Assembly (NCBI GenBank): GCA_035480415.1
Contig: DATIHT010000093.1
Location: 1 to 48,598 of the forward strand
Origin: Candidatus Saccharimonadales bacterium
Lineage (GTDB): Bacteria; Patescibacteriota; Microgenomatia; Curtissbacterales; GWA2-41-24
Direction: 5' to 3'
DNA: 48,598 nt
Shown: one piece after another, positions 6,789-48,228 of the stretch
Layout of the letters: the number at the start of each line of letters is the position of its first letter
Position numbering within the stretch: the first letter of the stretch is position 1
Notes under the pieces: generated by a model
Seen by the model: only the letters and a program-made list of their open reading frames with translations
Told to the model about the DNA's origin: nothing
The model's database searches: none
Translations under genes and position numbers: made by a program

Positions 6789-8048
6789 ATGAGGCAAATA
6801 GACGGTAAAGACATATTTTCTGTGTCAGAGGTAAATTATTTTGCCAAGCAAACCCTGGAGCAAATGACTTTCTGGGTAGAGGGTGAAATTTCCAGCGCCA
6901 AGAAAAACCCTAGCTGGAACTTTTTTTATCTGGATCTTAAAGACGACAAGGCTCTCCTTCCGTGTATTTCAGAAGGATATAAACTCGAAGGCCTAGGCGA
7001 AGATTTAGTGGGCCAGAAAATTCTAGCCTACGGAAACCTTTCCCTGTACGAACCTTTTGGAAAATTTCAGTTTAAAATCGCAAAGATTGAAAAGTTCGGC
7101 GAAGGTTTACTGCAAAAACAGCTGGAAGAGCTTATTAAAAAACTGAAATCAGAGGGCCTGTTCGACGCCAAGCATAAAAAGGAATTACCAAAATATCCAA
7201 AAAGAATTTGTATAGTAACTTCCCAAGGTTCTGACGCATGGAACGATTTTAAAAAACACACTGTCGGACAATTTCCAATTATCGAACTTTATACAGCAGA
7301 CGTTCGCGTTCAAGGTCCTAAGTCGCCTGCAAGTCTCCTAAAGGTTCTCCCACAGGTCGACACTCAAGGTTTTGATCTTATTGTGATAACCCGAGGTGGT
7401 GGCTCCATAGAAGACTTGGCAGCCTTCAACGACGAACAGGTTGCGAGGGCAATTTTTAAAATGGAGACACCGACAATTGTTGCAATCGGCCACGAGGCAA
7501 ACGAGTCTTTGGCAGAGTGGGTTTCAGACAGACGCGCTTCAACTCCGACCGACGCTGCTCACATAGTAATCTCTGGCTATCAAAGCCTCCTGCAAACCTT
7601 AAATAATCTAAAATATCAACTAGAATCTAAATCCACATACTATTTTTCTACAAACTTCCAAAGATTAGATTATATTTATCTCCAGCTTCAACAAACTAAA
7701 ACAACATTTAAAGACCTGCCGCACCGCCTGAATGGCATTCGCGAGGTGTTAAGACGCCATGAAAAGCATCAAATAGCAGACGCTAGGGATAAAGTCGACG
7801 AACTGATAGCACAAATTCAAAAGGAATTAAGGCAGCAGCTGCAAAATAAGAGCCAAAATTTACAACACGTTCACAAATCACTTGTTTTACTTTCGCCACA
7901 AAACACCCTGTCCAGAGGATACTCAATTACAACAGATGAAAACGGGAAAATAGTGCGCAGCATAAAAGCCGTTGATGTTGGGTCTGTAGTTGGTATAAAA
8001 TTGCAGGACGGATCACTTAAGACTAAAGTAACAAAAATTAGAGAATAG
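6789..8048 (+). CDS. xseA: exodeoxyribonuclease VII large subunit
   Basis: N-terminal OB-fold signature (SVSEVN..AKQTLE...WVEGEIS), ITRGGGS..DL..FN motif, and a long C-terminal coiled coil. Confidence 0.9.
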   Translation: MRQIDGKDIFSVSEVNYFAKQTLEQMTFWVEGEISSAKKNPSWNFFYLDLKDDKALLPCISEGYKLEGLGEDLVGQKILAYGNLSLYEPFGKFQFKIAKIEKFGEGLLQKQLEELIKKLKSEGLFDAKHKKELPKYPKRICIVTSQGSDAWNDFKKHTVGQFPIIELYTADVRVQGPKSPASLLKVLPQVDTQGFDLIVITRGGGSIEDLAAFNDEQVARAIFKMETPTIVAIGHEANESLAEWVSDRRASTPTDAAHIVISGYQSLLQTLNNLKYQLESKSTYYFSTNFQRLDYIYLQLQQTKTTFKDLPHRLNGIREVLRRHEKHQIADARDKVDELIAQIQKELRQQLQNKSQNLQHVHKSLVLLSPQNTLSRGYSITTDENGKIVRSIKAVDVGSVVGIKLQDGSLKTKVTKIRE

Positions 8049-8172
8049 TCGTTTAGAAAATAGAAATTTGTAATTGAGACAAGAAAATTGAAAACGGATT
8101 TAAGCACTAATTTCAAATATCTATTTTCCATTACTAATATCCAATCTCTAAATAACTAATATCAAAAATAAA
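8049..8172 (+). repeat. ORF-less palindromic AT-rich spacer element (family E)
   Basis: 8054-8077 is identical to 39675-39698 (24 nt). 8131-8160 matches 39750-39779 at 29/30. The arms are partly self-complementary (GAAAATAG/CTATTTTC). Confidence 0.7.
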
Positions 8173-8373
8173 ATGACTAAAGATTCCATTAATTTCACCC
8201 AGGCGCTAAAAAGGCTCGAAGAAATCGTCACAAAACTCGAAGGGCCGGATTTGGATTTAGAAGAAGGGCTCAAGCTTTTGGAAGAAGGCGTAAAGCTGCA
8301 CAAACTTTGTAAAGAAAAGCTAACCGAGGCAAACGCAAAGATCACGACTATTCTGAAGGAAGACGACAATTAA
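8173..8373 (+). CDS. xseB: exodeoxyribonuclease VII small subunit
   Basis: FTQALKRLEEIVTKLE...LEEGLKLLEEG is the XseB helical hairpin signature. Adjacent to xseA. Confidence 0.85.
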   Translation: MTKDSINFTQALKRLEEIVTKLEGPDLDLEEGLKLLEEGVKLHKLCKEKLTEANAKITTILKEDDN

Positions 8374-31356: not shown

Positions 31357-32697
31357 ATGAAGCTTACTTTCCTTGGTGCAACTCGCGAAGTAACAGGTTC
31401 CAATACTCTTTTTGAAACATCCGGCAAGAAAATTCTTTTTGAATGCGGACTTTTCCAGGGAATTAAACTCGCAGAAGAGAGAAACTACGCACCATTTGCA
31501 TACGACCCCAAAACCATCGACTTTCTACTAATCGGCCATGCACACCTAGACCACGTTGGCAGAATTCCAAAGTTAGTTAAGGAGGGATTCAGGGGAAGAA
31601 TATTTTCCACAGCCCCATCAAAAGAAATCGCAAGACTGGTTTTGGAAGACAGTTTTAAACTGATGCGCGAAGAGGCCAACAGAGAAGATAAGCCACTTTT
31701 GTATTACGAAGAAGACATAACAGCTTCCATGAATCTTTTTGAAACGATAGGCTTCGACGAAGAGCTGGAAATTACCAACGGAATAAAAATAACCTTTAAA
31801 AATTCGGGGCATATTCTAGGTTCTGCCAGTATCGTCGTTAAATCGGAAAATAAAACCTTATTTTATTCAAGTGACATTGGCAATTCACCTTCTGTCCTCC
31901 TGGATGATCACCAAACAGTCGAATCGGCAGACTACGTTATTTGCGAATCCACGTATGGCGGCCGGGTTCATGAAGATATCGGCAGAAGGAGCGAAAAACT
32001 AGGCGAGATTATAAACGCCACAATAGAAAAAAACGGAGTATTGATAATCCCTACCTTTGCAATAGAAAGAACACAGGAATTGCTTTCCGACATTGAACAT
32101 TTCTGCAAAAACGCAAGTTGCGCCCTGCCTACTTTTTATCTGGACAGCCCGCTTGGCCAAAAAGTAACAGAAGTTTTTCAAAAATACCCCCAATTTCTTA
32201 AAAAAGAAATCCAAAGTGTAAATTTGCAAGAATTCCTTGGTCTAAGCAGGGTAAAAATGACAGCAACCTCCGAGCAATCCAAAGAAATAGAATTTGCACA
32301 AAACCCCAAAATAATCATGGCCGGCTCGGGAATGATGAACGGCGGCCGCATCTTATTTCACCTGCAAAATTACATCGAAGACCCTAACAATACTTTGCTT
32401 ATCGTTGGTTACCAGGCCCAGGGTACTCTGGGCAGAAGGCTTTTGGAAGGCGAGGAAGAAATCAAAATTTTTGGCAAAAGTTACCAGGTTGGGGCAAAAG
32501 TAATGGCAATAGGTTCCTACAGTGCCCACGCCGATGCTCCGCAACTTTTAAAATGGCTTCAGTCTATTAAAAACGTAAAAAAGGTTTTTCTGGTCCACGG
32601 CGAAAGTTCTCAAATGATGGACCTGGCAAAATCTGTTGAGGAAAAATTGAATCTGGAAACCGCAATGCCTCAACAAGGCGAAGAATACGAGTTATAG
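31357..32697 (+). CDS. MBL-fold beta-CASP RNA-metabolising nuclease
   Basis: LIGHAHLDHVGRIP (HxHxDH), with beta-CASP and C-terminal RNA-specificity regions (SAHAD near the C-terminus). Confidence 0.8.
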   Translation: MKLTFLGATREVTGSNTLFETSGKKILFECGLFQGIKLAEERNYAPFAYDPKTIDFLLIGHAHLDHVGRIPKLVKEGFRGRIFSTAPSKEIARLVLEDSFKLMREEANREDKPLLYYEEDITASMNLFETIGFDEELEITNGIKITFKNSGHILGSASIVVKSENKTLFYSSDIGNSPSVLLDDHQTVESADYVICESTYGGRVHEDIGRRSEKLGEIINATIEKNGVLIIPTFAIERTQELLSDIEHFCKNASCALPTFYLDSPLGQKVTEVFQKYPQFLKKEIQSVNLQEFLGLSRVKMTATSEQSKEIEFAQNPKIIMAGSGMMNGGRILFHLQNYIEDPNNTLLIVGYQAQGTLGRRLLEGEEEIKIFGKSYQVGAKVMAIGSYSAHADAPQLLKWLQSIKNVKKVFLVHGESSQMMDLAKSVEEKLNLETAMPQQGEEYEL

Positions 32698-32827
32698 GAA
32701 ATTGGTTGTTCGGAAATTGGAAATTAGTAATGGAAAATTGATATTGGAAATTATTTTTTAAACGGATTTCATTTTTCTAGTTTCTATTACAAATTTCTAT
32801 TTTCCAAATAACTATTTTCTAATAAAT
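32698..32827 (-). repeat. ORF-less palindromic spacer element (family E, inverted orientation)
   Basis: 32786-32804 is the exact reverse complement of 8056-8074 (19 nt). ATTAGTAATGGAAAAT is the reverse complement of the 3' arm of 8049-8172. Confidence 0.65.
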
Positions 32828-34522
32828 TTATTTTGAAAAAGTAATCTGGTGCACTAGGGGTTTACTACTTCTTATCATAAATTTTTGGGCATATTGCTTA
32901 GTTACGTTTAGCTTTTTATGAGGGTTAAAAATATCCATAGGATCAAAAGCTCGTTTTATTTCTTCAAATATTTCATAAATCTTTTCTCCAAATTGGCGCT
33001 TTAAATAGGGAGCACGCACCAGGCCATCGTTATGTTCACCCGAATCCGAACCGTTATAATGCCACACAAGTTCAAAAACTTTGTCCATCATTTCGTAAAT
33101 TTTTTCGCTAACACCTTTTTTTTCCATTTCTACAAGTGGAATTATGTGAAAGTTACCATTGCCTATATGCCCTGCAACCGTATACATAAGCTTGGAATCA
33201 TTTAAAAGTTTGTACAATTTCGGAAAAAACTCCGGCAGCTTTTCGACCGAAACTACAATGTCGTCTATAAAAGGTGCAGCATATTTCCCTTTAACCTGAG
33301 ATTTCAAAAGGCCAAAGCTTTCTCTCCTCATTGCCCAATATTTTTCCCGCTCCAACTCGTTGTGCGTTGTATAAGTTTCCAAATTATCAAACTTTTTTAA
33401 CTCTTCTGCTAGCTTGCTCAGATTCTTGCGGATATTTTCAACATCGTCATCTTCGTATTCCACAAGGAGCGTAAGTTCGGGTGTACCGTCCTTTTCCCTT
33501 CTGGCAAATTCAGGATGAAACACACGTATTGTTTCGTCTTCGGAAAGCTTTAAGATTCTAGAAAAACCTGTCACATATTTAAGTGCCAGATCAAAAGTGT
33601 AGTGGTCGAAAGATTCAAAACAATCCGGTTTATGCCACAAAACAGTATCTACAATTTCCGGCAGGTGATCGTAATTCTGCATAAATGCCATAAGAATACC
33701 GGCGTGTTTTTTCGCCTTTATAAGCCCAAAGGTGACTTCTGTAATAATGCCAAGTGTTCCCTGCGACCCAACGAAAAGCTTGGGCGCATCAAAATGTTCG
33801 CCATCCCAAACATCCCAAATTGTGTAACCGGCGGAATTTTTGGAAACCTTTGGCCGAAACTTCTGGACAGTTTCATGATTTTCCAGCAAAATAGCAGAAA
33901 CTTCTTTGTAAATTCTGGCAAGCGCGTCGTCTTTTTTTATTCTTTGCTCAAGTTCGTGTTTGGTAAGTTTTTTAACCTCGTACTCTTCGCCGTCGAAAAG
34001 TACTACCTTTAGCTTTTCCACATACCTGTCTGTTTTTCCGTACTGCAAAGATTTTTCGCCACCAGCATTGTTTGCAACCATCCCGCCAACGGTACAAAGT
34101 CTTTTGGAAGAAGTGTAGGGCGGCAGGAGCAAATCGTGCTTATCAAGTTCTTTTTCTAAGTCACGGTAAAAAAGACCAGGCTGACAAACAACTTCTTGTT
34201 CGCGGATATGCAACCCTACAAGCTTATTCATATGCTCGCATGTAGAAACAATCACAGAATCGTTAAGAGTTCCGCCGCTCATGCAAGTACCGGCGGCACG
34301 CGCAGTTAAGGAAAGTCCGCCAGTTTTGTTTACAAACTTAACAAGTGCTTTGATATCACCTGCATCTTTAGGGAAAACAACCACTTTTGGTTTTATCTGG
34401 AAAATACTGGCATCTCTGGAAAATTGCATAAGAACATCAGGCTCCACAGAAACTTCTCCGCGAAATCCGGCGTTTTTAATTTGATCAGGCAGTTTCGAAA
34501 TCATAAATTTACCATTTTCCAA
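32828..34522 (-). CDS. FAD-linked oxidase (GlcD / D-lactate dehydrogenase-like)
   Basis: FAD_binding_4-type N-terminus (PKVVVFPKDAGDIKALVKF...ARAAGTCMSGG) and C-terminal oxidase domain. The start is TTG 34522 or ATG 34504. Confidence 0.8.
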   Translation of the reverse strand: MENGKFMISKLPDQIKNAGFRGEVSVEPDVLMQFSRDASIFQIKPKVVVFPKDAGDIKALVKFVNKTGGLSLTARAAGTCMSGGTLNDSVIVSTCEHMNKLVGLHIREQEVVCQPGLFYRDLEKELDKHDLLLPPYTSSKRLCTVGGMVANNAGGEKSLQYGKTDRYVEKLKVVLFDGEEYEVKKLTKHELEQRIKKDDALARIYKEVSAILLENHETVQKFRPKVSKNSAGYTIWDVWDGEHFDAPKLFVGSQGTLGIITEVTFGLIKAKKHAGILMAFMQNYDHLPEIVDTVLWHKPDCFESFDHYTFDLALKYVTGFSRILKLSEDETIRVFHPEFARREKDGTPELTLLVEYEDDDVENIRKNLSKLAEELKKFDNLETYTTHNELEREKYWAMRRESFGLLKSQVKGKYAAPFIDDIVVSVEKLPEFFPKLYKLLNDSKLMYTVAGHIGNGNFHIIPLVEMEKKGVSEKIYEMMDKVFELVWHYNGSDSGEHNDGLVRAPYLKRQFGEKIYEIFEEIKRAFDPMDIFNPHKKLNVTKQYAQKFMIRSSKPLVHQITFSK

Positions 34523-34613
34523 TTTCCATTTGCCATTTATTTTCCATTTTTAAATTTCTAAATTGATAAATTATTAAATCAATGGAAGATGATAAATGGA
34601 CAATGGAAAATAT
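34523..34613. repeat. diverged family-E-like palindromic spacer
   Basis: CCATTTGCCATTTAT pairs with ATAAATGGACAATGG. Shares the words GGAAATTGGAAA and ATGGAAAAT (reverse complement) with 32698-32827. Confidence 0.45.
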
Positions 34614-36573: not shown

Positions 36574-36577
36574 TTGG

Positions 36578-37855: not shown

Positions 37856-37890
37856 GCCTACCTCAATAGTACTACGTCCGAGCCTAAGAA

Positions 37891-37934
37891 ATCGAGGAAC
37901 GACCAAACGCTCCGCGTCAAGGTCGCACCTCGAT
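37891..37934 (+). promoter_or_regulatory. AA/CA-loop hairpin, copy B
   Basis: ATCGAGG-AA-CGACC-(16-nt loop)-GGTCG-CA-CCTCGAT. The outer stem differs from copy A by compensatory changes. Confidence 0.55.
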
Positions 37935-37943
37935 CTTAGCTCT

Positions 37944-37979
37944 TGATACCTTTGATACTTTTGATACTTTTGGTACCCT
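37944..37979 (+). repeat. TGATAC x3 plus TGGTAC tandem array, 9-nt period; the last unit TGgTACCCT is 6 nt from the ATG
   Basis: Units at 37944, 37953, 37962 and 37971. ATG at 37986. Confidence 0.85.
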
Positions 37980-37985
37980 TAGATT

Positions 37986-38624
37986 ATGGCTTTGATCATT
38001 CCCGGCATACTTACAGACAAAGAAGAAGAATATAAATCGCGCTTGCAAAAGGCAGATCACGCCGCACCCTTAATTCAAATAGATTTAGTAGACGGAAAAT
38101 TTGCCAACAGCACAACAGTAGGTGCAGGCGTAATAAAAAAATACCCAACCAAAAATCCACTGGAAATTCAACTCATGGTTGTCGACCCCATAAATTACAT
38201 AGACGATCTATCAAAGTTGGAATTTGTAACAAAAATTATTTTCCCTTACGAAATCGACGGTGATGTGCTGGAAGTTGCCTATCTTATTAGAAGACTGGGT
38301 AAATCTGTAGGTTTGTCCCTAAACCCAACAACGCCTGTACAAGATGTTCTCCACTATTTCGACGACATCGACATGCTTCTTTTAATGACAGGTAATCCAG
38401 GATTCTCTGGTCAGAAACTGGGCACGGAGACTTACCAAAGAATCAAAGACGCAAAAAAAATAAACGACTCATTGCCAGTAGAAATCGATATTGGAGTAAA
38501 CTTTAAAAATGCAAAGAAATTAGCAGATGCCGGCGCAGATTTTCTGGTTTCCTCGTCTGCCCTTTACAACGAACCTGATTTTTCAGTGGCCTACGAGAAG
38601 ATGCAAAAAATTGTCAATAATTAA
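37986..38624 (+). CDS. rpe: ribulose-phosphate 3-epimerase-like protein
   Basis: IQIDLVDGKF and LLLMTGNPGFSGQK match Rpe motifs (hVDvMDG.F, vm.V.PGfgGQ.f). The N-terminus is divergent. Confidence 0.65.
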   Translation: MALIIPGILTDKEEEYKSRLQKADHAAPLIQIDLVDGKFANSTTVGAGVIKKYPTKNPLEIQLMVVDPINYIDDLSKLEFVTKIIFPYEIDGDVLEVAYLIRRLGKSVGLSLNPTTPVQDVLHYFDDIDMLLLMTGNPGFSGQKLGTETYQRIKDAKKINDSLPVEIDIGVNFKNAKKLADAGADFLVSSSALYNEPDFSVAYEKMQKIVNN

Positions 38625-38637
38625 CGTTTATTTTTGT

Positions 38638-39015
38638 CTAGTGGTGTTCGGCTCCATCATTGAAACCATGGATTAGACCACTTCTTACGGGGACAAAACC
38701 CGCATTAGAATAAGGATTACCACTCGTTTCGCCGTCTTCGTAAGGTTGTCCATATTCTATATAAACCGCCATGTAACCACCCTCATCGACTGTGAACTCT
38801 AACCAGGTTGTTCCTGCAAGTTCCAATGCATGCTCTTCGGCCTGTTTCCTTCCTGCACGTGTATGTGGATACAACTCTCCTGTAACATGAGGTGGATCAG
38901 ACGCATTATTCTTTGTTATCACAGCATGATGAAACCTGGCTCTATCAGTTCCAGTCATAAAGTCTAATCGCTCTTTCATGTGCAGAATTTTAACACCATC
39001 CAGTAAATTTTTCAT
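38638..39015 (-). CDS. hypothetical protein (125 aa)
   Basis: Clean ORF. TAATTT (rc 39025-39030) lies 9 nt upstream of the ATG. No motif recognised. Confidence 0.45.
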   Translation of the reverse strand: MKNLLDGVKILHMKERLDFMTGTDRARFHHAVITKNNASDPPHVTGELYPHTRAGRKQAEEHALELAGTTWLEFTVDEGGYMAVYIEYGQPYEDGETSGNPYSNAGFVPVRSGLIHGFNDGAEHH

Positions 39016-39056
39016 ACAAGTTAGAAATTAACCTGGTAATCGTCTACAATAAATTA

Positions 39057-39656
39057 ATGCCCAAAATCCAAAAAGTTACATTCTTAGGATACGCAGATGC
39101 CAAAGAAGCAGACGACCCGTTTAAGGCCGCATTCGAAGTTGCCAAATTGTGCGCCGAAAAAGGATTAACAGTGGTAAATGGCGGAGGGCCCGGAGTCATG
39201 AAGGCATCCACACTTGGTGCTCATGAAGGTGGCGGCAAAGCAATAGGCATTACTTTTTACCCTGCAGACATTCCTGTTTTTGAAGGCCGTGATGAATCAA
39301 ACAACGTTGACGAGCTAATAGTTTGCGACAATTATCTGGAAAGAACCCTCAAACTTCTGGAAGTTGGTCACGTTCATGTCATTTTCAATGGAGGCACGGG
39401 TACAATTTCCGAATTTGGCATGGCATGGGGTCTTGCAAGACTTTACTTTGGACACCACAAACCCCTAATTCTTTATGGAGATTTTTGGCAAGAGATAATT
39501 TTTGCCTTCACAAAAGGCATGTATATAAGACCGGAAGAAAGACTCGTTTTCCAAATCGTCAACAAGCCCCATATGGTAATAGAAGCGATAAGCGAGTTTG
39601 AAAAAATGATAGACAAGCAAAAACATGAACACGTAGGACCGGTATTTTCGATATGA
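39057..39656 (+). CDS. LOG-family (TIGR00730-type) Rossmann-fold protein
   Basis: GGGPGVMKA and NGGTGTISEF (PGGxGTxxE-like) motifs. TACAAT (39045-39050) lies 6 nt upstream of the ATG. Confidence 0.75.
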   Translation: MPKIQKVTFLGYADAKEADDPFKAAFEVAKLCAEKGLTVVNGGGPGVMKASTLGAHEGGGKAIGITFYPADIPVFEGRDESNNVDELIVCDNYLERTLKLLEVGHVHVIFNGGTGTISEFGMAWGLARLYFGHHKPLILYGDFWQEIIFAFTKGMYIRPEERLVFQIVNKPHMVIEAISEFEKMIDKQKHEHVGPVFSI

Positions 39657-39793
39657 AACTAGAAATTGGTTGTGTAGAAAATAGAAATTTGTAATTGAAG
39701 TTAGAAATTAGAAATTGGAAGAAGACTATTTCTAAACTTCCATTTTCTGTTACTAATATCCAATTTCTAAATAACTAATTTCAAGATTATAAA
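39657..39793 (+). repeat. ORF-less palindromic spacer element (family E)
   Basis: TAGAAATTGG (39660-39669) pairs with CCAATTTCTA (39760-39769). Shares 24-nt and 29/30-nt blocks with 8049-8172. Confidence 0.7.
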
Positions 39794-40786
39794 ATGCAAA
39801 ATACCTTTGATCTCATTACAATTGGTGATTCCACAATCGATACTTTTATAAGCGTCCACGATGCAACTGTTGAATGCGATGTAAACAGAGAATCGTGCAA
39901 AATTTGCTTTGCCTACGGTTCTAAAATTCCGGTAGATGCTATTGCTCATGGACTTGCCGGAAATGCTGCAAATGTCGCAGTCGGCGCAGCAAGACTTGGT
40001 CTTAAAAGTGCAGTTTATACTAATCTTGGAGACGACGATGAAGGGAAGCAAATTAAACGAGCTTTTGAGAAGGATAACGTAGATTTAAGTTACGTAAAAA
40101 TAAACGAGAAAAAATCTTCTAATCTTTCTGTAGTTATTACTTTCCAGGGTGAACGTACAATTTTTGTTTATCATCAGGATTGGTTTTACCATTTACCGGA
40201 CATGGAAGGTACAAAATGGGTTTATCTAACATCCATGGGCCAAAGTTTTACAAATTCCAACATCATGGACGAAGTTCACCATTACATTCAAAAAACGGGA
40301 GCCAAACTGGCTTTCGGACCCGGAACCTACCAGCTAAAAGCAGATATTAAAAGATTCCCAAAGATTTTGGACAATTGCGAGCTTTTGATTGTAAATATGG
40401 AGGAGGCAAAACGAATATTAAACATAGATCAAACAGAAAAAACCGACCCTCGCGATCTTTTGGCAAAATTGCAGATGTTAGGACCAAAAATGGTGGTAAT
40501 TACAGATAGCGAAGAAGGCTCTTATGCAACAGACGGAAACAAAACATTAAAAGTAGGTACTTTTCCAATGCAGGTTGTCCAAAAAACCGGTGCCGGAGAC
40601 GCTTATTCTGCCGCATTTGTTGCAGCAATCTGTCTTGGTCTACCAATCGAAGAAGCTATGGTCTGGGGTGCAATAAACGCCTCACACGTTATCGCCCACG
40701 TCGGTGCCCAAGTGGGTCTGATGACCAAAGCAGAACTGGAAAAATACCGAAAAACAGTTAGCGAGATGAAAGCAGTATCTTTTTAG
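39794..40786 (+). CDS. PfkB-family carbohydrate kinase
   Basis: N-terminal TIGDSTIDTF with GG dipeptide region, and C-terminal TGAGDAYSAAF signature. Confidence 0.8.
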   Translation: MQNTFDLITIGDSTIDTFISVHDATVECDVNRESCKICFAYGSKIPVDAIAHGLAGNAANVAVGAARLGLKSAVYTNLGDDDEGKQIKRAFEKDNVDLSYVKINEKKSSNLSVVITFQGERTIFVYHQDWFYHLPDMEGTKWVYLTSMGQSFTNSNIMDEVHHYIQKTGAKLAFGPGTYQLKADIKRFPKILDNCELLIVNMEEAKRILNIDQTEKTDPRDLLAKLQMLGPKMVVITDSEEGSYATDGNKTLKVGTFPMQVVQKTGAGDAYSAAFVAAICLGLPIEEAMVWGAINASHVIAHVGAQVGLMTKAELEKYRKTVSEMKAVSF

Positions 40787-41308
40787 AAAGAAACTAGTTA
40801 TTCAGAAAATTGAAATTCGTAATGGATAGTAGAAATTTCGAAAATGGAAAATATAAACCTATTAAAAGCTTTCAGGACTTAGTTGTTTATCAAAATTTAT
40901 ATAGAGCTATGGTGATTGTATTAACACAAATCATTCCATTTTTACCAAATGAGGAAAAATTTGATCTGGTTGACCAAATGAGAAGGGCATGCAAGGCTGG
41001 GCCAGCTCTAATCGCAGAAGGCTTCGCGAAACGATACCAAATACGTCAATGGCGAAAATATTTAAACGACACAATAGGCGAATCAAATGAAATGGTTCAT
41101 CATTTGTCGGTGTGCATAGATATTTACAAAAAATATATTGATGTAAAATTGTGTAAAGAGGTCATTGAAATTTACGACACAACATGCAAACAATTAACAA
41201 AGCTCGGTCAAGCATGGCAGGATTATCATGCTAATGATAAATAACACTAATGTCTAATTTCAATTTTCTATTACCAATTTCAAATATCAAAATAACTAAT
41301 TTCTAAAC
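40787..41308 (+). mobile_element. candidate IVS-like palindromic cassette carrying a four-helix-bundle gene
   Basis: Inverted arms: AGAAACTAGTTATT-7nt-TTGAAATTCGTAAT (40789-40823) against ATTACCAATTTCAA-7nt-AATAACTAATTTCT (41270-41304). ORF-less relatives occur elsewhere in the window. Mobility is inferred, not shown. Confidence 0.35.
40822..41244 (+). CDS. four-helix-bundle protein (23S rRNA intervening-sequence protein / Avd family)
   Basis: FQDLVVYQNLY...DQMRRACKAGPALIAEGFAKR...YLNDTIGESNEMVHHL is the characteristic pattern of this family. ATG 40822 (track TTG 40810). Confidence 0.8.
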   Translation: MDSRNFENGKYKPIKSFQDLVVYQNLYRAMVIVLTQIIPFLPNEEKFDLVDQMRRACKAGPALIAEGFAKRYQIRQWRKYLNDTIGESNEMVHHLSVCIDIYKKYIDVKLCKEVIEIYDTTCKQLTKLGQAWQDYHANDK

Positions 41309-42277
41309 ATGCCTCGTGTTTACATCACCACCAAAATCCCACTCTTAGCACACGATATGCTTGCCAAAAAAGATTTTAGTGTCGATGTTAATGAAACCGA
41401 AAATCCTCTTCACGAAGAACAGCTTAAAAAGATTCTAAAAACATATGATGCTGTAATTTCTTCTGTACCGGACAAAATTACACACGAAGTAATAGCTCAT
41501 GCATCACCAAATCTAAAAGTTATTGCCAACTACGCAGTCGGAATAGACAACATCGATGTTCTGGCAGCCAAAAGAAAAAACATTGTAGTCACCAACACGC
41601 CAGGGGTTGCAGGGGAAGCAGTTGCCGAACATGCATTCGCGCTAATTCTGGCTTGCGCCAAAAAACTAACCGAGGCTGATAAATATGTTAGGGCAGGGAA
41701 GTACAAAAACTGGGATGCAACTCTTTACGTTTCCCCGCAAATTTGGGGCAAAACAATCGGCATTGTCGGGCTCGGCAAAATAGGCACCTATGTAGGCAAC
41801 ATTGCATTCGGAGGTTTTAAGATGAAAATTTTGTACCACGACATCGTAAAGTCCGAAGACTTTGAAATGCTGACAGAAGCCCAGTACTGCTCGCTGGAAC
41901 ATTTATTAAAAGAATCAGACGTGGTGACACTTCATGTTCCTCTTGTTGCGCAAACACACCACTTAATTGGCAAGAGTGAACTTGCACAAATGAAAAAAAC
42001 TGCAATATTGATAAACACCGCAAGGGGAGCGGTGATAGACCAGGAAGCACTGATTGCCGCGCTAAGAAAAAAAGAGATAGCAGCAGCAGGGCTGGATGTT
42101 TATGAACACGAACCGGATATCCCCGAAGAGTTAAGAACTCTTGGTAATGTAGTACTAACTCCACACACTGCTTCTGCAACCGAAGAATGCAGAGAAGAAA
42201 TGGCAAGAATCGCCGCCCAAAATGTTATTGATGTTTTTGAAGGAAAACAACCATTTGGGCTGGTGAAAGTTAGCTAG
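41309..42277 (+). CDS. D-isomer-specific 2-hydroxyacid dehydrogenase (glyoxylate/hydroxypyruvate reductase-like)
   Basis: NAD-binding GIVGLGKIGTYVG, with catalytic R (NTARG), E and H (TPHTAS). Confidence 0.85.
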   Translation: MPRVYITTKIPLLAHDMLAKKDFSVDVNETENPLHEEQLKKILKTYDAVISSVPDKITHEVIAHASPNLKVIANYAVGIDNIDVLAAKRKNIVVTNTPGVAGEAVAEHAFALILACAKKLTEADKYVRAGKYKNWDATLYVSPQIWGKTIGIVGLGKIGTYVGNIAFGGFKMKILYHDIVKSEDFEMLTEAQYCSLEHLLKESDVVTLHVPLVAQTHHLIGKSELAQMKKTAILINTARGAVIDQEALIAALRKKEIAAAGLDVYEHEPDIPEELRTLGNVVLTPHTASATEECREEMARIAAQNVIDVFEGKQPFGLVKVS

Positions 42278-42782
42278 CCAAATCGTCGCGGGGTGGCTCG
42301 TCAGGATAAGGAGTATCCGGGAGAGGCTCGTCAGGATACCATGCTCTCAAACCCTCTTCTTCCACTTCCATCCGTAACGACTTTAATCTCATAGGTTCGG
42401 TCCCAATTCTTCTTCCAACCAAAGTTCTGCGTGTTTCATAAATAGTTTCGTCAACTGCCGCTAAAAACTCGTTATCAGAAAAACCTCTGGATACGGCATC
42501 TTCAATGTTTTGATCAAGTTTCTCCTTAGCCTCAATAGTTTCAGTATGATCGTCGCCAAAATTTAAATATTTTTGTACGTACTTTTCAACTTTGCGCGGA
42601 TCAACAGCAGGTTCTTTGGGATACCTTCGTACAATATCAACCGAATCTATTACAGGCTTTAAAATTGTGGGGGTCTGAACCGCTTCATAACCAGAAGTAA
42701 CAGTCAACATTGAATCTGCCGGCACTCTAAACTGAAGCAACAATTGTCCTTGATCTGGAATTCTTTCGCCGCCACTTGCCAT
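42270..42782 (-). CDS. hypothetical protein (170 aa) with an acidic Pro-rich C-terminus
   Basis: Clean ORF. TATAAT (rc 42789-42794) lies 6 nt upstream of the ATG. Its 3' end overlaps the convergent dehydrogenase gene by 8 nt. Confidence 0.45.
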   Translation of the reverse strand: MASGGERIPDQGQLLLQFRVPADSMLTVTSGYEAVQTPTILKPVIDSVDIVRRYPKEPAVDPRKVEKYVQKYLNFGDDHTETIEAKEKLDQNIEDAVSRGFSDNEFLAAVDETIYETRRTLVGRRIGTEPMRLKSLRMEVEEEGLRAWYPDEPLPDTPYPDEPPRDDLAS

Positions 42783-42805
42783 ACCTATATTATACTGCCA
42801 AAAGT

Positions 42806-43171
42806 CTAGTGAAAAAACTTCCCTCTATCTTTAGTGTGATTAGTTTGGTGTTTATCCTTTTTTTTATTTTTCATCTCATCCTGATATTCGCCAAAGTGAT
42901 GTTCTTGCAAATGATCTAATGCCTGGGCATCATCCATACCGTACTTATGTTTAAGATAACCAATAAGCTCTGATCCCAAAATAACACCAGCTCCAACAAC
43001 TACAGCAGATTCACCAATAAATTTAGAATATCTTTTTAAAACCGATGGGAATTTATGAATAGCAGCATAACCGTATTTAATAGCGTCAACAACATGAGCT
43101 TCATGATGCTCTCCAATAGGCTGTTCGATATTAGCATCGTGCTGAGGCAAATCTGGTCTTTCTGCAGTCAT
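42806..43171 (-). CDS. hypothetical His-rich protein with one TM segment
   Basis: ATG 43171 is 9 nt after TGgTATAAT (rc 43181-43189); track start is TTG 43180. TM segment AVVVGAGVILGSELIGY. Many His residues. Confidence 0.45.
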   Translation of the reverse strand: MTAERPDLPQHDANIEQPIGEHHEAHVVDAIKYGYAAIHKFPSVLKRYSKFIGESAVVVGAGVILGSELIGYLKHKYGMDDAQALDHLQEHHFGEYQDEMKNKKKDKHQTNHTKDRGKFFH

Positions 43172-43233
43172 GAGTTGCAAATTATACCAGAAATGATTGA
43201 TTTCTCACCTTAGCTGTCACATAATCAAAACAT

Positions 43234-43692
43234 ATGCCAAAGCCCGAAAAACTGGAAGAGATTAAAAAGGAATTTGGAAAAACCAAAAACCCAAATAAGA
43301 TTCACAACGATCGTCTTTCCGCACTGGACAAGCTAGCGCTTGTCGTAACCGAAAAAATCGGCACGATGGGTTTTTTCTTTATTATCTTTATCTGGACTGT
43401 TGGTTGGCTTGGCTGGAATGTAGTTGCTCCACACAATCTGCGATTCGACCCATACCCTGCATTCGTTCTTTGGCTTTTTATCTCAAACCTAATCCAAATT
43501 CACTTGATGCCACTTATTATGATTGGCCAAAACATTCAGGGACAGCATGCAGAAATTAGGGCAGACCAGGACTTTGAAACAAACGTTAAAGCAGAAAAGG
43601 AAATAGAAACTATTATTCTGCATTTAGAAAACCAAAACAAAGTACTGGAAGAAATCACAACCAGACTCAACAAGCTAGACGCAAAAAGATAA
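43234..43692 (+). CDS. DUF1003-family membrane protein
   Basis: LDKLALVVTEKIGTMGFF...DPYPFxxL-like FDPYPAFVLWLFISNLIQI..QN pattern with a C-terminal coiled coil. Confidence 0.65.
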   Translation: MPKPEKLEEIKKEFGKTKNPNKIHNDRLSALDKLALVVTEKIGTMGFFFIIFIWTVGWLGWNVVAPHNLRFDPYPAFVLWLFISNLIQIHLMPLIMIGQNIQGQHAEIRADQDFETNVKAEKEIETIILHLENQNKVLEEITTRLNKLDAKR

Positions 43693-43726
43693 AAAAACTC
43701 CAAAAAAAGTGTAAAATACTTCCTCT

Positions 43727-44917
43727 ATGAATAAGAATGTAGTCATTGGCGTCGCAAGCGGTATCGCAGCATATAAAACGCTGGATCTTATCAAGCTGCT
43801 AAAAAAAGAAGGTGTCAATTGCATAGTGGTAATGACCAAAGCGGCAACGCAAATGGTTAATCCAAGCGAGTTTAAAAGGGCAACGGGCAACAAAGTTTAC
43901 ACAGAGCTTTTCGAAAAAGATTTTAACTACAAGAAAATCCTAAAGCTGCAAAAAGTAGACCACATAGACCTGGCAGACAAAGCAGATGTTTTTGTAATTG
44001 CCCCGGCAACTGCAAACACCATCGCCAAAATCGCAAACGGTTTTGCAGACGATTTCTTAACAACAACCCTGCTTGCCGCAACATGCCCGGTTATTATTTG
44101 CCCTTCTATGAACCCCAACATGTACAACAACCCAACAGTTGTAGAAAACCTAAGCAAACTAAGAAAACTTGGCTACATAATAATAAAACCCGCATCTGGC
44201 ATGCTTGCTTGCGGTTATGAAGGTATAGGCCGGCTTGCCGACTTAGAAAATATCAAAGTTGAAATCATGAAGCAATTGGATAAAACCAATTCGCTCACAT
44301 CAAAACGTATTCTAATAACAGCAGGGGGCACCAGAGAAAAAATAGACGATGTCCGTTACATAACTAATAGCTCTTCCGGAAAAATGGGCGCGGCCTTAGC
44401 AGATGAATGTTATTTGCGTGGTGCAGACATCACAATCTACAAATCTGCAAGTTCGGTAAACCCAAGGTATTTAATAAAATCAGAAATCTTTGAAACAAAA
44501 GACGATCTGGAAAGCTTAATTAAAAGTAATGTCAAAAACTTCGATGTTGTTATTCAATGTGCAGCCGTTTCTGATTTTATACCCGAGAAAAAAGTTGGCA
44601 AAATCGCAAGCACCAAATCTCAAACACTGATATTGAGACCTCACACCAAAATCATCGACACAATAAAAAAACTTAATCCAAAGGTAAAACTCGTTGCGTT
44701 TAAGGCTTACTGGGAAAAAACAGCCCACGAACTGATTGACAAATCGGATGCGACTATTTTTAACGATATCTCCAAAAAAGACGTAGGTCTTGAAAGTGAT
44801 TATAACGAAGTAGAAGTGGTAACCAAGGACTCGGTAGAAAAAATCACAAAAGCGCCAAAAGCTGAAATTGCCAAAAAAATTATAGATTTTTTAGTAGTGC
44901 AAAAAATATTAACTTAG
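43727..44917 (+). CDS. coaBC: bifunctional phosphopantothenoylcysteine decarboxylase / phosphopantothenate-cysteine ligase
   Basis: Flavoprotein N-domain (VVIGVASGIAAYK, PATANTIAK) and CoaB C-domain (ITAGGTREKIDDVRYITNSSSGKMG). Confidence 0.85.
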   Translation: MNKNVVIGVASGIAAYKTLDLIKLLKKEGVNCIVVMTKAATQMVNPSEFKRATGNKVYTELFEKDFNYKKILKLQKVDHIDLADKADVFVIAPATANTIAKIANGFADDFLTTTLLAATCPVIICPSMNPNMYNNPTVVENLSKLRKLGYIIIKPASGMLACGYEGIGRLADLENIKVEIMKQLDKTNSLTSKRILITAGGTREKIDDVRYITNSSSGKMGAALADECYLRGADITIYKSASSVNPRYLIKSEIFETKDDLESLIKSNVKNFDVVIQCAAVSDFIPEKKVGKIASTKSQTLILRPHTKIIDTIKKLNPKVKLVAFKAYWEKTAHELIDKSDATIFNDISKKDVGLESDYNEVEVVTKDSVEKITKAPKAEIAKKIIDFLVVQKILT

Positions 44918-45654
44918 GCAGCTACGTGGAAAAATTTAGCAATTGCATAACCGATAAGTGCTGCAACCAAACCAATTACTACCAAACGTAAGCCACTCTT
45001 CCACCAACTGCCAACCAAAGAAAAGGCCTGATAAGCACCAACGGCAAAAAGGGCAACTGCAGAGGCAACAATAGAAGCAATTAAGGCATCTTTGCCAACA
45101 ACAAAGAAAAAGGGCATCAGGGGAACCATATGCCCAACAAAAGTAGCAACCGTAATAATAGCCGAAGTTTTTAAAACATCTCTGGAATCAACAGGCGCAA
45201 TATTAAGCTCTTCTGCCATCATTAAATCTACCCAATTATCCCGATTGGAAGAAACCGTAATTACAATCTCTTCTAAAGTCTTGCCGGAAAAACCCTTCTT
45301 TTTATAAATTCGCCTAATTTCTTCTTTTTCCATTTCCGGCTCTTTTTCTATTTCTGTCTCTTCTTTTGCCCTTTCGCTGTCGTAATAATCTTTCTGTGCA
45401 AGAGAAGAAGTATAGCCAACCGCCCCCATAGATATAGATTCGGCAAAGTTGGCAGCCATTACAGTCGCAATAAGAATATGGATGTTTCCACCTGCTGCCA
45501 AAATTCCCAGAATAATACCAAGAGCATTAACAAGCCCGTCCTGGCCGCCCAAAATAACATCGCGCAGCGGGTTATCTAATTTGTGACCATGACGTGCAAT
45601 GTGAGCCTTATACGAAGATTCTGTCGGGACCTTGGACAGAGTTTGGACTGCCAT
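44914..45654 (-). CDS. VIT1/CCC1-family iron/manganese transporter
   Basis: RDVILGGQDGLVNALGIILG, a central acidic helix region, and C-terminal TM helices. TGaTATACT (rc 45661-45669) lies 6 nt upstream of the ATG. Confidence 0.8.
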   Translation of the reverse strand: MAVQTLSKVPTESSYKAHIARHGHKLDNPLRDVILGGQDGLVNALGIILGILAAGGNIHILIATVMAANFAESISMGAVGYTSSLAQKDYYDSERAKEETEIEKEPEMEKEEIRRIYKKKGFSGKTLEEIVITVSSNRDNWVDLMMAEELNIAPVDSRDVLKTSAIITVATFVGHMVPLMPFFFVVGKDALIASIVASAVALFAVGAYQAFSLVGSWWKSGLRLVVIGLVAALIGYAIAKFFHVAA

Positions 45655-45691
45655 AACAGTAGTATATCAAATGTTAGGCAAGAACCTATAG

Positions 45692-45720
45692 TTGACTTAC
45701 GGACCCAAAAAGGTTATCAT
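45692..45720 (+). promoter_or_regulatory. promoter TTGACT-17 nt-TATCAT
   Basis: TTGACT at 45692-45697 (the track's TTG start) and TATCAT at 45715-45720. Confidence 0.5.
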
Positions 45721-45772
45721 ACTCACGAAAGCTAACGCACTTGATTACACTTCAAATTTCAGCAAAATTCTA

Positions 45773-46021: not shown

Positions 46022-46051
46022 AAACTTTTCAATTTTTGTTAATATAAAGTA

Positions 46052-46726: not shown

Positions 46727-46732
46727 CTTCAT

Positions 46733-48226: not shown

Positions 48227-48228
48227 GA

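What the first reader, a model, noticed from the sequence alone, without database searches (positions are those of the whole stretch)
40787..41308. Four-helix-bundle (IVS-protein/Avd family) gene nested between inverted arms that also occur ORF-less elsewhere
CDS 40822-41244 is the only cargo between two arms that are reverse complements of each other. The left arm is AGAAACTAGTTATT (40789-40802), 7 nt, TTGAAATTCGTAAT (40810-40823). The right arm is ATTACCAATTTCAA (41270-41283), 7 nt, AATAACTAATTTCT (41291-41304). Each block matches at 13/14 and the spacing is identical. Related arm sequences joined without any ORF fill the spacers at 8049-8172 and 39657-39793, and in inverted orientation at 32698-32827. 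That is the full-length/miniature relationship known from transposon/MITE pairs and from rRNA intervening sequences. Here, however, there is no transposase, integrase or rRNA. This protein family is known as a 23S rRNA IVS product and as the DGR accessory protein Avd. A self-contained palindromic cassette occupying spacers between protein genes would be an undescribed context. The right arm also supplies TAATTT (41297-41302) exactly 6 nt from the ATG of the downstream dehydrogenase, so the element may donate the promoter.
Basis: partly seen in the sequence, partly recalled or inferred. Interest (0 to 1): 0.7.

Follow-up and report, generated by a model that had tools for sequence, protein, structure and literature searches.

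The report
IVS-type hairpin cassette outside rRNA
A small four-helix-bundle gene sits inside a long hairpin built from 7-base repeats, the same layout as the "intervening sequences" known from 23S rRNA, but here it was inserted between ordinary enzyme genes of a candidate-phyla-radiation bacterium and has several gene-less copies nearby, suggesting these elements form a wider, probably mobile class.

Summary
CDS 40822-41244 encodes a PF05635/TIGR02436 four-helix-bundle (4HB) protein. It is closed by a 49-nt, 80% complementary inverted repeat (40789-40837 / 41256-41304; z about 12 against shuffles). Three gene-less hairpins of the same arm family fill the spacers at 8035-8173, 32684-32832 and 39656-39792. 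A solitary half-array lies at 34524-34565.

The arms are degenerate tandem heptamers (GAAAWTR and its complement). The ATG lies inside the stem.

This layout is not peculiar to the window. About 30 of 40 homologous loci have it, from CPR, Margulisiibacteriota, Omnitrophota and TA06. So does a Nostoc plasmid gene, and so does a genuine 23S rRNA IVS in Azospirillum. Published Coxiella IVS data describe the same layout.

Four syntenic relatives have empty pfkB-dehydrogenase spacers. Only 2 of the 40 closest 4HB pairs share neighbouring genes. Gene-less hairpins outnumber gene-bearing ones about 8:1 in a metagenome sample. A second cargo, a GxxExxY nuclease, occupies similar cassettes.

Best reading: an IVS-type palindromic cassette in a non-rRNA setting, probably mobile, with miniature derivatives.

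RNase III processing and the means of movement are inferred, not shown. Promoter donation is unsupported. No strand-specific RNA signal was found.

The parts
40787..40847 (+). 5' arm of the cassette. It is a degenerate heptamer array (GAAAWTR type). The inverted-repeat core is 40789-40837. It contains the start codon (40822-40824) and encodes the first residues of the protein.
   Evidence: (D3/D4)
40822..41244 (+). CDS of 140 aa: four-helix-bundle protein of the 23S-rRNA-IVS / S23p family (PF05635, TIGR02436). It is the only gene between the arms.
   Evidence: dN/dS of the subfamily is 0.065.
41246..41308 (+). 3' arm of the cassette, the complement of the heptamer array (YAWTTTC). The inverted-repeat core is 41256-41304. 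It ends 4 nt before the ATG of the 2-hydroxyacid dehydrogenase gene.
   Evidence: (D2)
8035..8173 (.). Gene-less hairpin of the same arm family (arms 8038-8093 / 8111-8166, loop 17 nt). It fills the xseA-xseB spacer.
32684..32832 (.). Gene-less hairpin of the same arm family (arms 32684-32751 / 32766-32832, loop 14 nt). It lies between convergent genes: beta-CASP RNase on + and FAD oxidase on -.
39656..39792 (.). Gene-less hairpin of the same arm family (arms about 39660-39715 / 39728-39792, loop 12 nt). It fills the LOG-like/pfkB spacer. Four syntenic relatives lack it.
34524..34565 (-). Solitary purine-type heptamer array (GGAAAAT AAATGGC AAATGGA AATTGGA AAATGGT on the minus strand), directly upstream of the FAD-oxidase start. 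It is a half-element without a partner arm.
   Evidence: (D9). Similar solitary arrays occur in metagenomes.

Best explanation
The region 40787-41308 is a non-rRNA copy of the element type known as an ORF-bearing 23S rRNA intervening sequence (IVS). The cassette is about 520 nt. Two arms made of degenerate 7-nt repeats (GAAAWTR upstream, its complement downstream) form a stem of about 49 bp. That stem closes a loop holding one gene, a four-helix-bundle (S23p/IVS-protein) gene.

The cassette was inserted between pfkB and a 2-hydroxyacid dehydrogenase gene in this lineage. The gene-less hairpins at 8035-8173, 32684-32832 and 39656-39792 are miniature versions of the same element.

Shown:
- the anatomy of the cassette;
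- the heptamer periodicity of the arms;
- the start codon lying inside the stem;
- conservation of this layout across the protein family, including a true rRNA IVS;
- strong purifying selection on the protein;
- empty orthologous sites in relatives;
- unrelated neighbourhoods for closely related cassettes;
- a large excess of gene-less copies;
- a second alternative cargo, a GxxExxY PD-(D/E)XK nuclease.

Inferred:
- The cassette has no recognisable promoter of its own and is read through from the host operon.
- The transcript folds into the long stem. As in rRNA IVSs, RNase III would cut that stem, splitting the polycistronic RNA and releasing an ORF-containing RNA whose 5' end lies near the ATG. 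That would suit a genome that translates mostly without Shine-Dalgarno sites.
- The element spreads, or once spread, as a selfish palindrome by a route that needs no transposase of its own. The route is unknown. The 4HB protein is the only factor the element encodes.
For: Anatomy:
- Inverted repeat of 49 nt at 80% (z 8.5 and 11.8 in the corrected run).
- The minimum-energy and centroid folds of the whole 536-nt RNA both close the ORF with this stem and pair the ATG (z -3.9).
- Lag-7 self-identity of the arms is 0.50-0.53, against a baseline of 0.29.

Generality:
- 32 of the 41 cassettes scored (the window plus 40 loci) have flanking inverted repeats at z>=4.
- The heptamer changes between lineages (GAAAWTR, GTTGTGR, GGGTAGT) while the 3' arm stays complementary.
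- None of 38 loci lies in rRNA.
- A Nostoc plasmid gene lies between (AGGAGTC)n and (GACTCCT)n.

Link to IVS:
- The Azospirillum 4HB ORF lies inside a 23S rRNA gene, with purine-heptamer arms and the ATG in the 5' arm.
- The Coxiella IVS has a 28-bp terminal stem, two or three GACAGAT heptamers before the ATG, and RNase III cuts in mid-stem (PMC4990558).

Insertion and relocation:
- Four of four syntenic relatives (Rpe-LOG-pfkB-2HADH) have pfkB-2HADH spacers of 2-34 nt with no gene and no hairpin.
- Only 2 of the 40 closest 4HB pairs share neighbouring genes.
- The sister genomes L032 and L033 hold different hairpin elements in three of the same spacers.

Miniatures:
- 49 gene-less hairpins against 6 gene-bearing cassettes among 88 arm-motif sites in metagenomes.
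- Gene-less copies matching the arms of their own locus occur in L012, L024, L026, L027, L032, L033 and L034.

Functional protein and arms:
- dN/dS is 0.065 at dS 0.43. In the same pair the arms are 90-93% identical, against 67% identity at synonymous sites.

Read-through:
- No + strand promoter match in the cassette.
- Gaps of 35 and 64 nt to co-directional neighbours.
- Only 4 of 44 genes have a Shine-Dalgarno-like motif, and many have TGnTATAAT 7-10 nt before the ATG.
Against: - There is no sign that the stem is selected at the RNA level on the sense strand. G:U pairs (109) equal A:C mismatches (103) in 32 cassettes. Sense transcripts of 27 gene-less hairpins fold no better than antisense ones (15 vs 12, p 0.62). 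The palindrome may therefore matter as DNA, or be neutral.
- No transposase, integrase, target-site duplication or homing enzyme is linked to the 4HB cassettes.
- Window copies are old and diverged: 57% flank identity to each other, against 47% to copies in other genomes. Recent movement in this genome is not shown.
- The relatives with empty sites are distant (pfkB 68-70% identical), so loss in their lineage is not excluded.
- Some cassettes are stable in place across species (L032/L033, L004/L012).
- About a quarter of subfamily genes lack detectable arms (L013, L028, L029, L031, L035).
- Co-orientation with neighbours (29/39 upstream, 32/40 downstream) is no more than is usual for bacterial genes.
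- RNase III cleavage and transcription were not, and could not be, tested here.
Confidence: 0.6

Rival explanations
1. Host hairpins came first. Heptamer-repeat palindromes are a general, host-made feature of intergenic spacers in these genomes, comparable to cyanobacterial STRR hairpins. They would arise by slippage and be kept for mRNA processing, stability or translational coupling. The 4HB gene merely landed in the loop of one of them, so the arms are not part of a gene-plus-arms unit.
For: - The window holds other heptamer hairpin families that carry no gene: CAGGTAA at 16144-16248, and AATTTAA at 8369-8482, 14794-14899 and 35602-35708.
- Gene-less hairpins and solitary arrays far outnumber gene-bearing ones.
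- 7-bp-repeat (STRR) hairpins inside cyanobacterial operons are described, with unknown function (PMC2670836).
Against: - The gene and arms travel together across phyla. Lineage-specific heptamers are always complementary on the two sides of the ORF.
- The ATG and the first codons (M-E-N) are built from the arm repeat.
- The same layout occurs inside 23S rRNA, where no host intergenic hairpin pre-exists (PMC4990558).
- A second small gene family has the same arrangement.
Confidence: 0.15
2. Regulator with dispersed binding sites. The 4HB protein is a homo-oligomeric nucleic-acid binder, like Avd and Xcc0516. It would recognise the heptamer repeats as RNA or DNA, autoregulate through its own stem, and act in trans on the gene-less hairpins to control processing, termination or translation of the flanking host genes. 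The element would then be domesticated rather than selfish.
For: - There is strong purifying selection on the protein, and the arms are better conserved than synonymous sites.
- One gene accompanies several same-family hairpins in the window.
- The heptamer type changes together with protein divergence.
- The fold matches the pentameric S23p proteins 2gsc and 2rld, and more weakly DGR Avd, which binds RNA and a reverse transcriptase (PMC10053308).
Against: - No binding data exist.
- Co-variation of heptamer and protein is also expected from plain shared descent and from G+C drift.
- The hairpins lie next to unrelated housekeeping genes with no common theme (xseA/xseB, LOG/pfkB, RNase/FAD oxidase).
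- The sites are not conserved in relatives, which argues against a conserved regulon.
Confidence: 0.15
3. Chance or low-complexity artefact. AT-rich spacers made of simple repeats would give apparent inverted repeats with no biological meaning.
For: The genome is A+T-rich (about 40% G+C). The arms are repetitive, so many alternative registers can pair.
Against: - The inverted-repeat score is 29, against a shuffle mean of 11 and a maximum of 22.
- The hairpin scan has a null maximum of 16.5, against 24-33 observed.
- The direct (non-inverted) control scores only 10.
- The same architecture recurs in about 30 independent loci with different heptamers, including G+C-rich ones.
Confidence: 0.01

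Closest known systems
ORF-bearing 23S rRNA intervening sequences (Leptospira, Coxiella burnetii, Brucella, Xanthomonas-type S23p IVS)
   Same: - The same protein family (PF05635/TIGR02436; fold matches 2gsc and 2rld).
- The same layout: terminal inverted repeats form a long stem, the ORF lies in the loop, purine-rich tandem heptamers lie directly before the ATG, and the Shine-Dalgarno site is poor or absent.
- A true IVS examined here (Azospirillum) shows it, and the Coxiella paper describes it (PMC4990558).
- Gene-less short versions exist in both settings.
   Different: - The location differs: between protein-coding genes of ordinary operons, not in helix 25/45 of 23S rRNA. None of 38 subfamily loci is in rRNA.
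- The protein is under strong purifying selection (dN/dS 0.065), whereas the Coxiella ORF is reported to be decaying and untranslated.
- RNase III excision is demonstrated for rRNA IVSs and only inferred here.
Cyanobacterial STRR (short tandemly repeated repetitive) heptamer sequences
   Same: - Both are tandem 7-nt repeats that can form hairpins inside operons (for example hupS-hupL), with function unknown (PMC2670836).
- STRR also occur inside a structural RNA gene, RNase P RNA (Vioque 1997; title only, seen in the reference list of PMC2858038).
- A Nostoc plasmid 4HB gene is flanked by such heptamers in inverted arrangement.
   Different: In the literature I could search, STRR are described as repeats only and are not tied to a cargo gene. 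The organisms here are CPR/Patescibacteria and the heptamers differ (GAAAWTR).
MITEs and other non-autonomous palindromic repeats (REP/BIME, RAYT-associated)
   Same: - Short palindromic intergenic copies greatly outnumber a longer gene-bearing form with the same ends.
- There is presence/absence variation between relatives.
   Different: - There is no transposase or RAYT, no target-site duplication, and no conserved GTAG/CGTC tag.
- The arms are internally repetitive heptamer arrays rather than unique terminal inverted repeats.
- Copies within the genome are old and diverged.
DGR accessory protein Avd
   Same: Both have the same four-helix-bundle superfamily fold (Foldseek hit 8ub7_C, TM 0.67 on the target; PF05635 resembles Avd according to PMC10053308).
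   Different: There is no reverse transcriptase, template repeat or variable repeat in the window. The sequence and fold are clearly closer to the S23p/IVS branch (2gsc, 2rld) than to Avd.

Membership tests
PF05635 / TIGR02436 four-helix-bundle (23S rRNA IVS protein, S23p) family | Sequence match to the family model above its curated cutoff | tested here: met
   PF05635 scores 53.3 bits (cutoff 33.8, E 3.6e-14, model positions 1-105 of 106). TIGR02436 scores 47.2 bits (cutoff 24).
PF05635 / TIGR02436 four-helix-bundle (23S rRNA IVS protein, S23p) family | Four-helix-bundle fold like Xcc0516 (2gsc) and BT_0352 (2rld) | tested here: met
   The AF2 model has pLDDT 87 and four helices. Foldseek against 2gsc gives TM 0.87 on the target (rmsd 2.1); 2rld gives TM 0.76-0.83.
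PF05635 / TIGR02436 four-helix-bundle (23S rRNA IVS protein, S23p) family | Homopentameric toroid assembly | not tested
   Only a monomer was modelled.
rRNA intervening sequence (IVS) | Located within a 23S (or 16S) rRNA gene, typically at helix 25 or 45 | tested here: not met
   No rRNA is present in the window. The cassette lies between pfkB and a 2-hydroxyacid dehydrogenase gene.
rRNA intervening sequence (IVS) | Complementary termini forming a long stem that encloses the insert | tested here: met
   The stem is 49 nt at 80%. It is present in both the MFE and centroid folds of the full RNA.
rRNA intervening sequence (IVS) | [quoted passage not shown] | tested here: met
   Lag-7 identity is 0.53 in the window copies. 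Compare GACAGAT x2-3 in Coxiella (PMC4990558) and the Azospirillum IVS arms.
rRNA intervening sequence (IVS) | Excision from the precursor RNA by RNase III | not testable with these tools
   This needs RNA end mapping or an in vitro cleavage assay.
MITE / autonomous transposon pair | The full-length partner encodes a transposase | tested here: not met
   The only cargo is the 4HB protein. There is no transposase in the window.
MITE / autonomous transposon pair | Target-site duplications flanking the copies | tested here: inconclusive
   No direct repeats are evident at the element ends. Empty sites in relatives are too diverged to align.
MITE / autonomous transposon pair | Short copies share their termini with the long copy and are more numerous | tested here: met
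   (D2-D4). There are three full gene-less copies and one gene-bearing copy in the window, and about 8:1 in metagenomes.
DGR (Avd accessory protein) | Adjacent reverse transcriptase with a template/variable repeat pair | tested here: not met
   No reverse-transcriptase family appears among the precomputed Pfam labels of the genes called over window 30822-48598. The remainder of the window (1-30821) was not scanned for RT. The repeat analysis shows no TR/VR pair.
Integron cassette / attC | ORF followed by a single attC palindrome, arranged in an array next to an integrase | tested here: not met
   The arms lie on both sides of the ORF. The neighbours are housekeeping genes in conserved synteny, and there is no integrase.
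TIGR-Tas arrays | 36-nt units with box C/D motifs next to a Nop-domain Tas gene | tested here: not met
   Here the period is 7 nt, there is no Tas gene, and the description in PMC12045711 does not fit.

The most novel reading that the evidence does not exclude
rRNA intervening sequences may be only the best-known niche of a widespread, so far unnamed class of transposase-less palindromic cassettes. Their arms are tandem heptamers and they carry one small gene, either a four-helix-bundle protein or a GxxExxY PD-(D/E)XK nuclease. They would colonise any site that tolerates a long hairpin, such as rRNA helix tips, RNase P RNA and spacers inside operons. They would leave behind the abundant gene-less heptamer hairpins of CPR bacteria and the STRR repeats of cyanobacteria. 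The cargo proteins would be the factors that move or maintain the element.
Probability: 0.25. Interest if true: 0.85.

Novelty: new variant of a known kind. Interest (0 to 1): 0.66.

Why it matters
The origin and purpose of bacterial rRNA intervening sequences and of their S23p/four-helix-bundle ORFs have been open since about 1990. The Coxiella study still calls them unclear (PMC4990558).

If the same stem-plus-ORF module is common between ordinary protein genes, then the IVS is not an rRNA-specific oddity. It would be one landing site of a general element. This view is supported here by insertion polymorphism, many miniature copies and a second cargo family.

That makes the old 'IVS as mobile element' idea testable by comparative genomics. 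It gives a candidate origin for the unexplained heptamer hairpins of CPR genomes and for cyanobacterial STRR repeats. It also offers a context for the very large, functionally blank TIGR02436 and TIGR04256 families.

In practice, such roughly 50-bp stems inside operons are likely RNase III sites. They would shape mRNA processing in organisms that mostly lack Shine-Dalgarno-led translation.

Tried and rejected
- Orientation of gene-less copies by 'purine arm first'. I first took this as a link to the direction of transcription. I withdrew it because a palindrome reads the same on both strands. The supposed minus-strand copy at 34491-34626 is only a solitary half-array.
- Strand-specific RNA selection. 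G:U versus A:C counts (109 vs 103) and sense versus antisense folding energies (15 vs 12, p 0.62) gave no signal.
- Promoter donation. The sigma-70 consensus scan found no + strand site in the right arm, and the number of sites equals the shuffle expectation. The genome's real promoters look like TGnTATAAT 7-10 nt before the ATG, which TAATTT matches only weakly. This remains untested rather than disproved.
- Terminator. There is no T-run. The hairpins lie mostly between co-directional genes (27 co-directional, 4 convergent, 4 divergent).
- Rfam. No family matches the hairpins in the window or in 38 loci.
- TIGR-Tas arrays, integron attC sites, REP/RAYT elements and a DGR were each considered and rejected on their defining features (and the membership table).
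- Phage carriage. No relative of this 4HB subfamily was found in IMG/VR viral contigs.
- Recent intragenomic burst. Copies in the window are only modestly more alike than copies from different genomes (0.57 vs 0.47).
- Close relatives for a clean presence/absence test. The nearest pfkB homologues are only 68-70% identical, so empty and filled spacers could not be aligned and target-site features could not be read.
- Literature searches for a prior description of 4HB genes in inverted heptamer arms outside rRNA, and for GxxExxY in such cassettes, found none in the held library. This does not prove that none exists.
Full report
**1. The observation**

The two 14-nt blocks on each side are 13/14 complementary and have equal 7-nt spacing. 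The repeat finder extends the pairing to 49 nt at 80% complementarity, 40789-40837 against 41256-41304. A local inverted-repeat alignment of the two flanks scores 29. In one search, 200 shuffles gave a mean of 11.1, sd 2.1 and maximum 22 (z 8.5), and the direct, non-inverted control scored 10. The corrected re-run gave z 11.8.

The ORF 40822-41244 (140 aa) matches PF05635 at 53.3 bits, above the 33.8 cutoff. It matches TIGR02436 at 47.2 bits, above the cutoff of 24. ATG 40822, not TTG 40810, is the start that aligns with homologues. An AlphaFold model (pLDDT 87) is a four-helix bundle. Its best solved matches are Xcc0516 (2gsc, TM 0.87 on the target) and BT_0352 (2rld). DGR Avd (8ub7_C) matches more weakly.

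**2. Gene-less relatives in the window**

The repeat finder puts the left and right arms in register with three other spacers: 8035-8173, 32698-32829 and 39656-39792, at 65-81% identity (families D2-D4). Each is a continuous imperfect hairpin of about 130 nt with a 12-17 nt loop. My hairpin scan scores them 24-33, against a maximum of 16.5 in a block-shuffled window. RNA folds give z -2.7 to -7.5.

These hairpins fill whole spacers:
- xseA to xseB;
- a LOG-like gene to pfkB;
- the convergent pair of beta-CASP RNase and FAD oxidase.

I made the same mistake for a while and withdrew it. What I first took for a minus-strand copy at 34491-34626 is a solitary purine heptamer array just upstream of the FAD-oxidase start.

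**3. What the arms are**

The arms are degenerate tandem heptamers. Self-identity at lag 7 is 0.50-0.53 and at lag 14 is 0.43-0.45, against about 0.29 at other lags. The 5' arm is A/G/T-rich with 6% C (GAAAWTR units). The 3' arm is its complement. The start codon lies inside the 5' arm (GTAATGGA...). The first codons of the subfamily (M-E-N...) are simply the repeat read in frame. Both the minimum-energy and the centroid fold of the whole 536-nt cassette RNA close the ORF with this stem and pair the ATG (z -3.9).

**4. The source organism**

The source is a CPR/Patescibacteria MAG, GCA_964624995.1. Its label says Saccharimonadales. The nearest pfkB homologues, at 68-70% identity, are labelled Curtissbacteria.

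**5. The layout is the rule for this protein subfamily**

The 4HB protein has more than 400 relatives at 66-81% identity. I fetched 45 genome loci and tested the flanks of 40 of them. Including the window cassette, 32 of the 41 scored have a significant inverted repeat (z 4-16). In these, the left arm ends at or over the ATG and the right arm starts within about 30 nt of the stop.

The heptamer differs between lineages:
- GAAAWTR in most CPR;
- a CGAAATT variant in some;
- GTTGTGR in Margulisiibacteriota and Saganbacteria;
- GGGTAGT in an Omnitrophota MAG.

The downstream arm is always the complement. None of 38 loci scanned lies in an rRNA gene, and no Rfam family matches the hairpins.

The ORF is under strong purifying selection: dN/dS is 0.065 at dS 0.43 for the pair L032/L033. 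In that pair the arms are 90-93% identical, while synonymous sites are only about 67% identical. The arms therefore appear constrained too, although this rests on one pair.

**6. The link to true rRNA intervening sequences**

A tblastn search of plasmids found distant homologues at 25-34% identity.

- In Azospirillum lipoferum AZO_p2 the ORF lies inside a 23S rRNA gene, about 1,150 nt in (Rfam LSU match 1810-5008; ORF 2974-3375). This is a genuine IVS. It is flanked by TCAGAGGACGGATGACAGAGGACGGAGGACAGAAAG and its complement (z 12.3). These are purine heptamers, and the ATG lies inside the 5' arm.
- The published Coxiella IVS has a 28-bp terminal stem, the S23p ORF in the loop, two or three GACAGAT heptamers directly before the ATG, a poor Shine-Dalgarno site, and RNase III cuts in mid-stem (PMC4990558).
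- A Nostoc punctiforme plasmid 4HB gene lies between protein genes and between (AGGAGTC)n and (GACTCCT)n (z 9.6). A Geminocystis gene has GGGAARA repeats and their complement.
- Two other cyanobacterial genes do not fit. Oscillatoria has direct rather than inverted purine repeats, and Nostoc commune has none.

The window cassette is therefore the same kind of module as an ORF-bearing IVS, placed outside rRNA.

**7. Evidence for insertion and relocation**

Four relatives keep the synteny Rpe-LOG-pfkB-2HADH. Their pfkB-2HADH spacers are 2, 8, 17 and 34 nt, with no gene and no hairpin. Their LOG-pfkB spacers (-4 to 119 nt) also lack the hairpin found at 39656-39792. These relatives are distant, so loss cannot be formally excluded.

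Among the 40 most similar 4HB pairs, only two (L032/L033 and L004/L012) share neighbouring genes.

The sister genomes L032 and L033 are about 88% identical in DNA. They keep the 4HB cassette in place but hold different hairpin elements in three other spacers. At one of these, L033 has a gene-less GAAAWT-type hairpin. L032 instead has a 502-nt cassette with ACTCGAA-type arms around a 140-aa GxxExxY / PDDEXK_3 gene (TIGR04256 E 1.6e-20; PF13366 E 7e-21). Two further GxxExxY genes in metagenome loci are also flanked by repeat-built inverted arms (z 7-9). The cassette type thus has at least two alternative cargoes, and spacers turn over.

**8. Ratio of miniature to full-length copies**

They break down as follows:
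- 49 gene-less hairpins;
- 6 distinct 4HB-bearing cassettes;
- about 25 solitary arrays or other sites;
- 4 cut by contig ends.

Gene-less hairpins resembling the arms of their own locus also occur next to 4HB cassettes in L012, L024, L026, L027, L032, L033 and L034. In the window the count is one gene-bearing cassette, three gene-less hairpins and one half-array. No relative of the subfamily was found in viral contigs.

**9. Tests that came out negative**

- If the stem were selected as sense-strand RNA, G:U pairs should exceed A:C mismatches. They do not (109 vs 103).
- For 27 gene-less hairpins between co-directional genes, the sense transcript folds better in 15 and worse in 12 (p 0.62).
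- The hairpins show no preference for convergent or divergent spacers (27 co-directional, 4 convergent, 4 divergent).
- Window copies are only slightly more alike than copies from different genomes (0.57 vs 0.47 flank identity), so there has been no recent burst.
- The consensus promoter scan finds nothing on the + strand in the right arm, and the total equals the shuffle expectation.

This genome almost lacks Shine-Dalgarno motifs (4 of 44 genes). It often has TGnTATAAT 7-10 nt before the ATG, suggesting leaderless mRNAs.

**10. Most likely mechanism**

Shown:
- a gene-plus-stem module that is conserved as a unit;
- a functional protein;
- lineage-specific presence;
- many miniature copies.

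Inferred:
- The cassette is transcribed by read-through from the pfkB operon. There is no promoter match, and the gaps to co-directional neighbours are 35 and 64 nt.
- The stem of about 49 bp forms and is cut by RNase III, as in rRNA IVSs. This would split the operon transcript and release an RNA that starts near the 4HB ATG. That could be how the gene is translated in a largely leaderless system.
- The element spreads without its own transposase. The absence of any strand-specific RNA signature means a DNA-level role for the palindrome, such as a cruciform or hairpin during insertion, is equally possible.

I put 0.6 on the overall statement: about 0.85 on 'IVS-type cassette in a non-rRNA site with miniature derivatives', and about 0.4-0.5 on the RNase III and selfish-mobility parts.

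Rivals:
- host-made hairpins with an opportunistic gene (0.15);
- a domesticated regulator with dispersed sites (0.15);
- chance (0.01).

**11. Comparison with known systems, and novelty**

The element works like, and is built like, an ORF-bearing rRNA IVS. It fails the defining location criterion, so it is not an rRNA IVS. It resembles a transposon/MITE pair in copy-number pattern only. It also resembles cyanobacterial STRR hairpins, 7-bp repeats inside operons whose function is unknown (PMC2670836). It is not a DGR, an integron cassette, a REP/RAYT element or a TIGR array.

I found no description of 4HB or GxxExxY genes nested in inverted heptamer arms outside rRNA in the held literature. 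That library is incomplete. I rate the finding a new variant of a known kind.

Noticed in passing
window 16144-16248: There is a hairpin of a different heptamer family: (CAGGTAA)n on the left and (TTACCTR)n on the right, with a 17-nt loop. It fills the spacer between genes 14900-16153 and 16247-17845 and carries no gene.
   Followed up: partly
window 8369-8482, 14794-14899, 35602-35708: There is a third family of very A+T-rich heptamer hairpins (AATTTAA/AATTTTT units), in three spacers. A similar element lies in L032 at 2097-2195. Together with family A, many spacers of this genome are occupied by heptamer palindromes.
   Followed up: partly
window 48170-48226 and 48465-48521 (beside tRNA-Gln at 48527-48598): Two perfect 57-nt direct repeats flank a small GIY-YIG ORF (about 48199-48465). 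Each repeat looks like the first bases of the adjacent tRNA-Gln (GCGGGATCG...TCTAATG) with a 35-nt G+C-rich hairpin inserted. The same small hairpin sits in the loop of a heptamer hairpin in metagenome locus L093 (about 1072, minus strand). It may be another tiny mobile element.
   Followed up: partly
L032 5720-6221 versus L033 5720-5873: At the same spacer in two sister Moranbacteria genomes, one has a gene-less GAAAWT-type hairpin. The other has a cassette with ACTCGAA-type inverted arms around a GxxExxY / PDDEXK_3 nuclease gene. GxxExxY genes in L103 (8557-8991) and L133 (5065-5475) are also flanked by repeat-built inverted arms.
   Followed up: yes
whole window (gene starts): Only 4 of 44 genes have a Shine-Dalgarno-like motif. 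Many have an extended -10 box (TGnTATAAT) ending 7-10 nt before the ATG, which suggests widespread leaderless mRNAs in this organism.
   Followed up: partly
L024 4448-4580, L026 1170-1285, L034 968-1118, L008 and L040 downstream of the stop: In some cassettes a second 5'-type arm follows the stop codon. The single 3' arm can then pair either with the arm upstream of the ORF or with the local one. This gives two mutually exclusive hairpins, one enclosing the ORF and one not.
   Followed up: no
L031, L038, L045, L047: The 4HB reading frame is split over two frames, giving frameshifted or decaying copies. Some cassettes are therefore pseudogenes.
   Followed up: no
L056 (Oscillatoria nigro-viridis plasmid) 1340-2050: This 4HB gene is flanked on both sides by purine-rich GGGAGAGT-type repeats in direct, not inverted, orientation. 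It is an exception to the hairpin rule.
   Followed up: no
record labels of loci L005, L006, L009, L017 and others, and of the source MAG: Many of these CPR-like contigs are labelled 'uncultured Gammaproteobacteria'. The source MAG is labelled Saccharimonadales, although its pfkB is closest to Curtissbacteria proteins. The taxonomic labels of these assemblies look unreliable.
   Followed up: no
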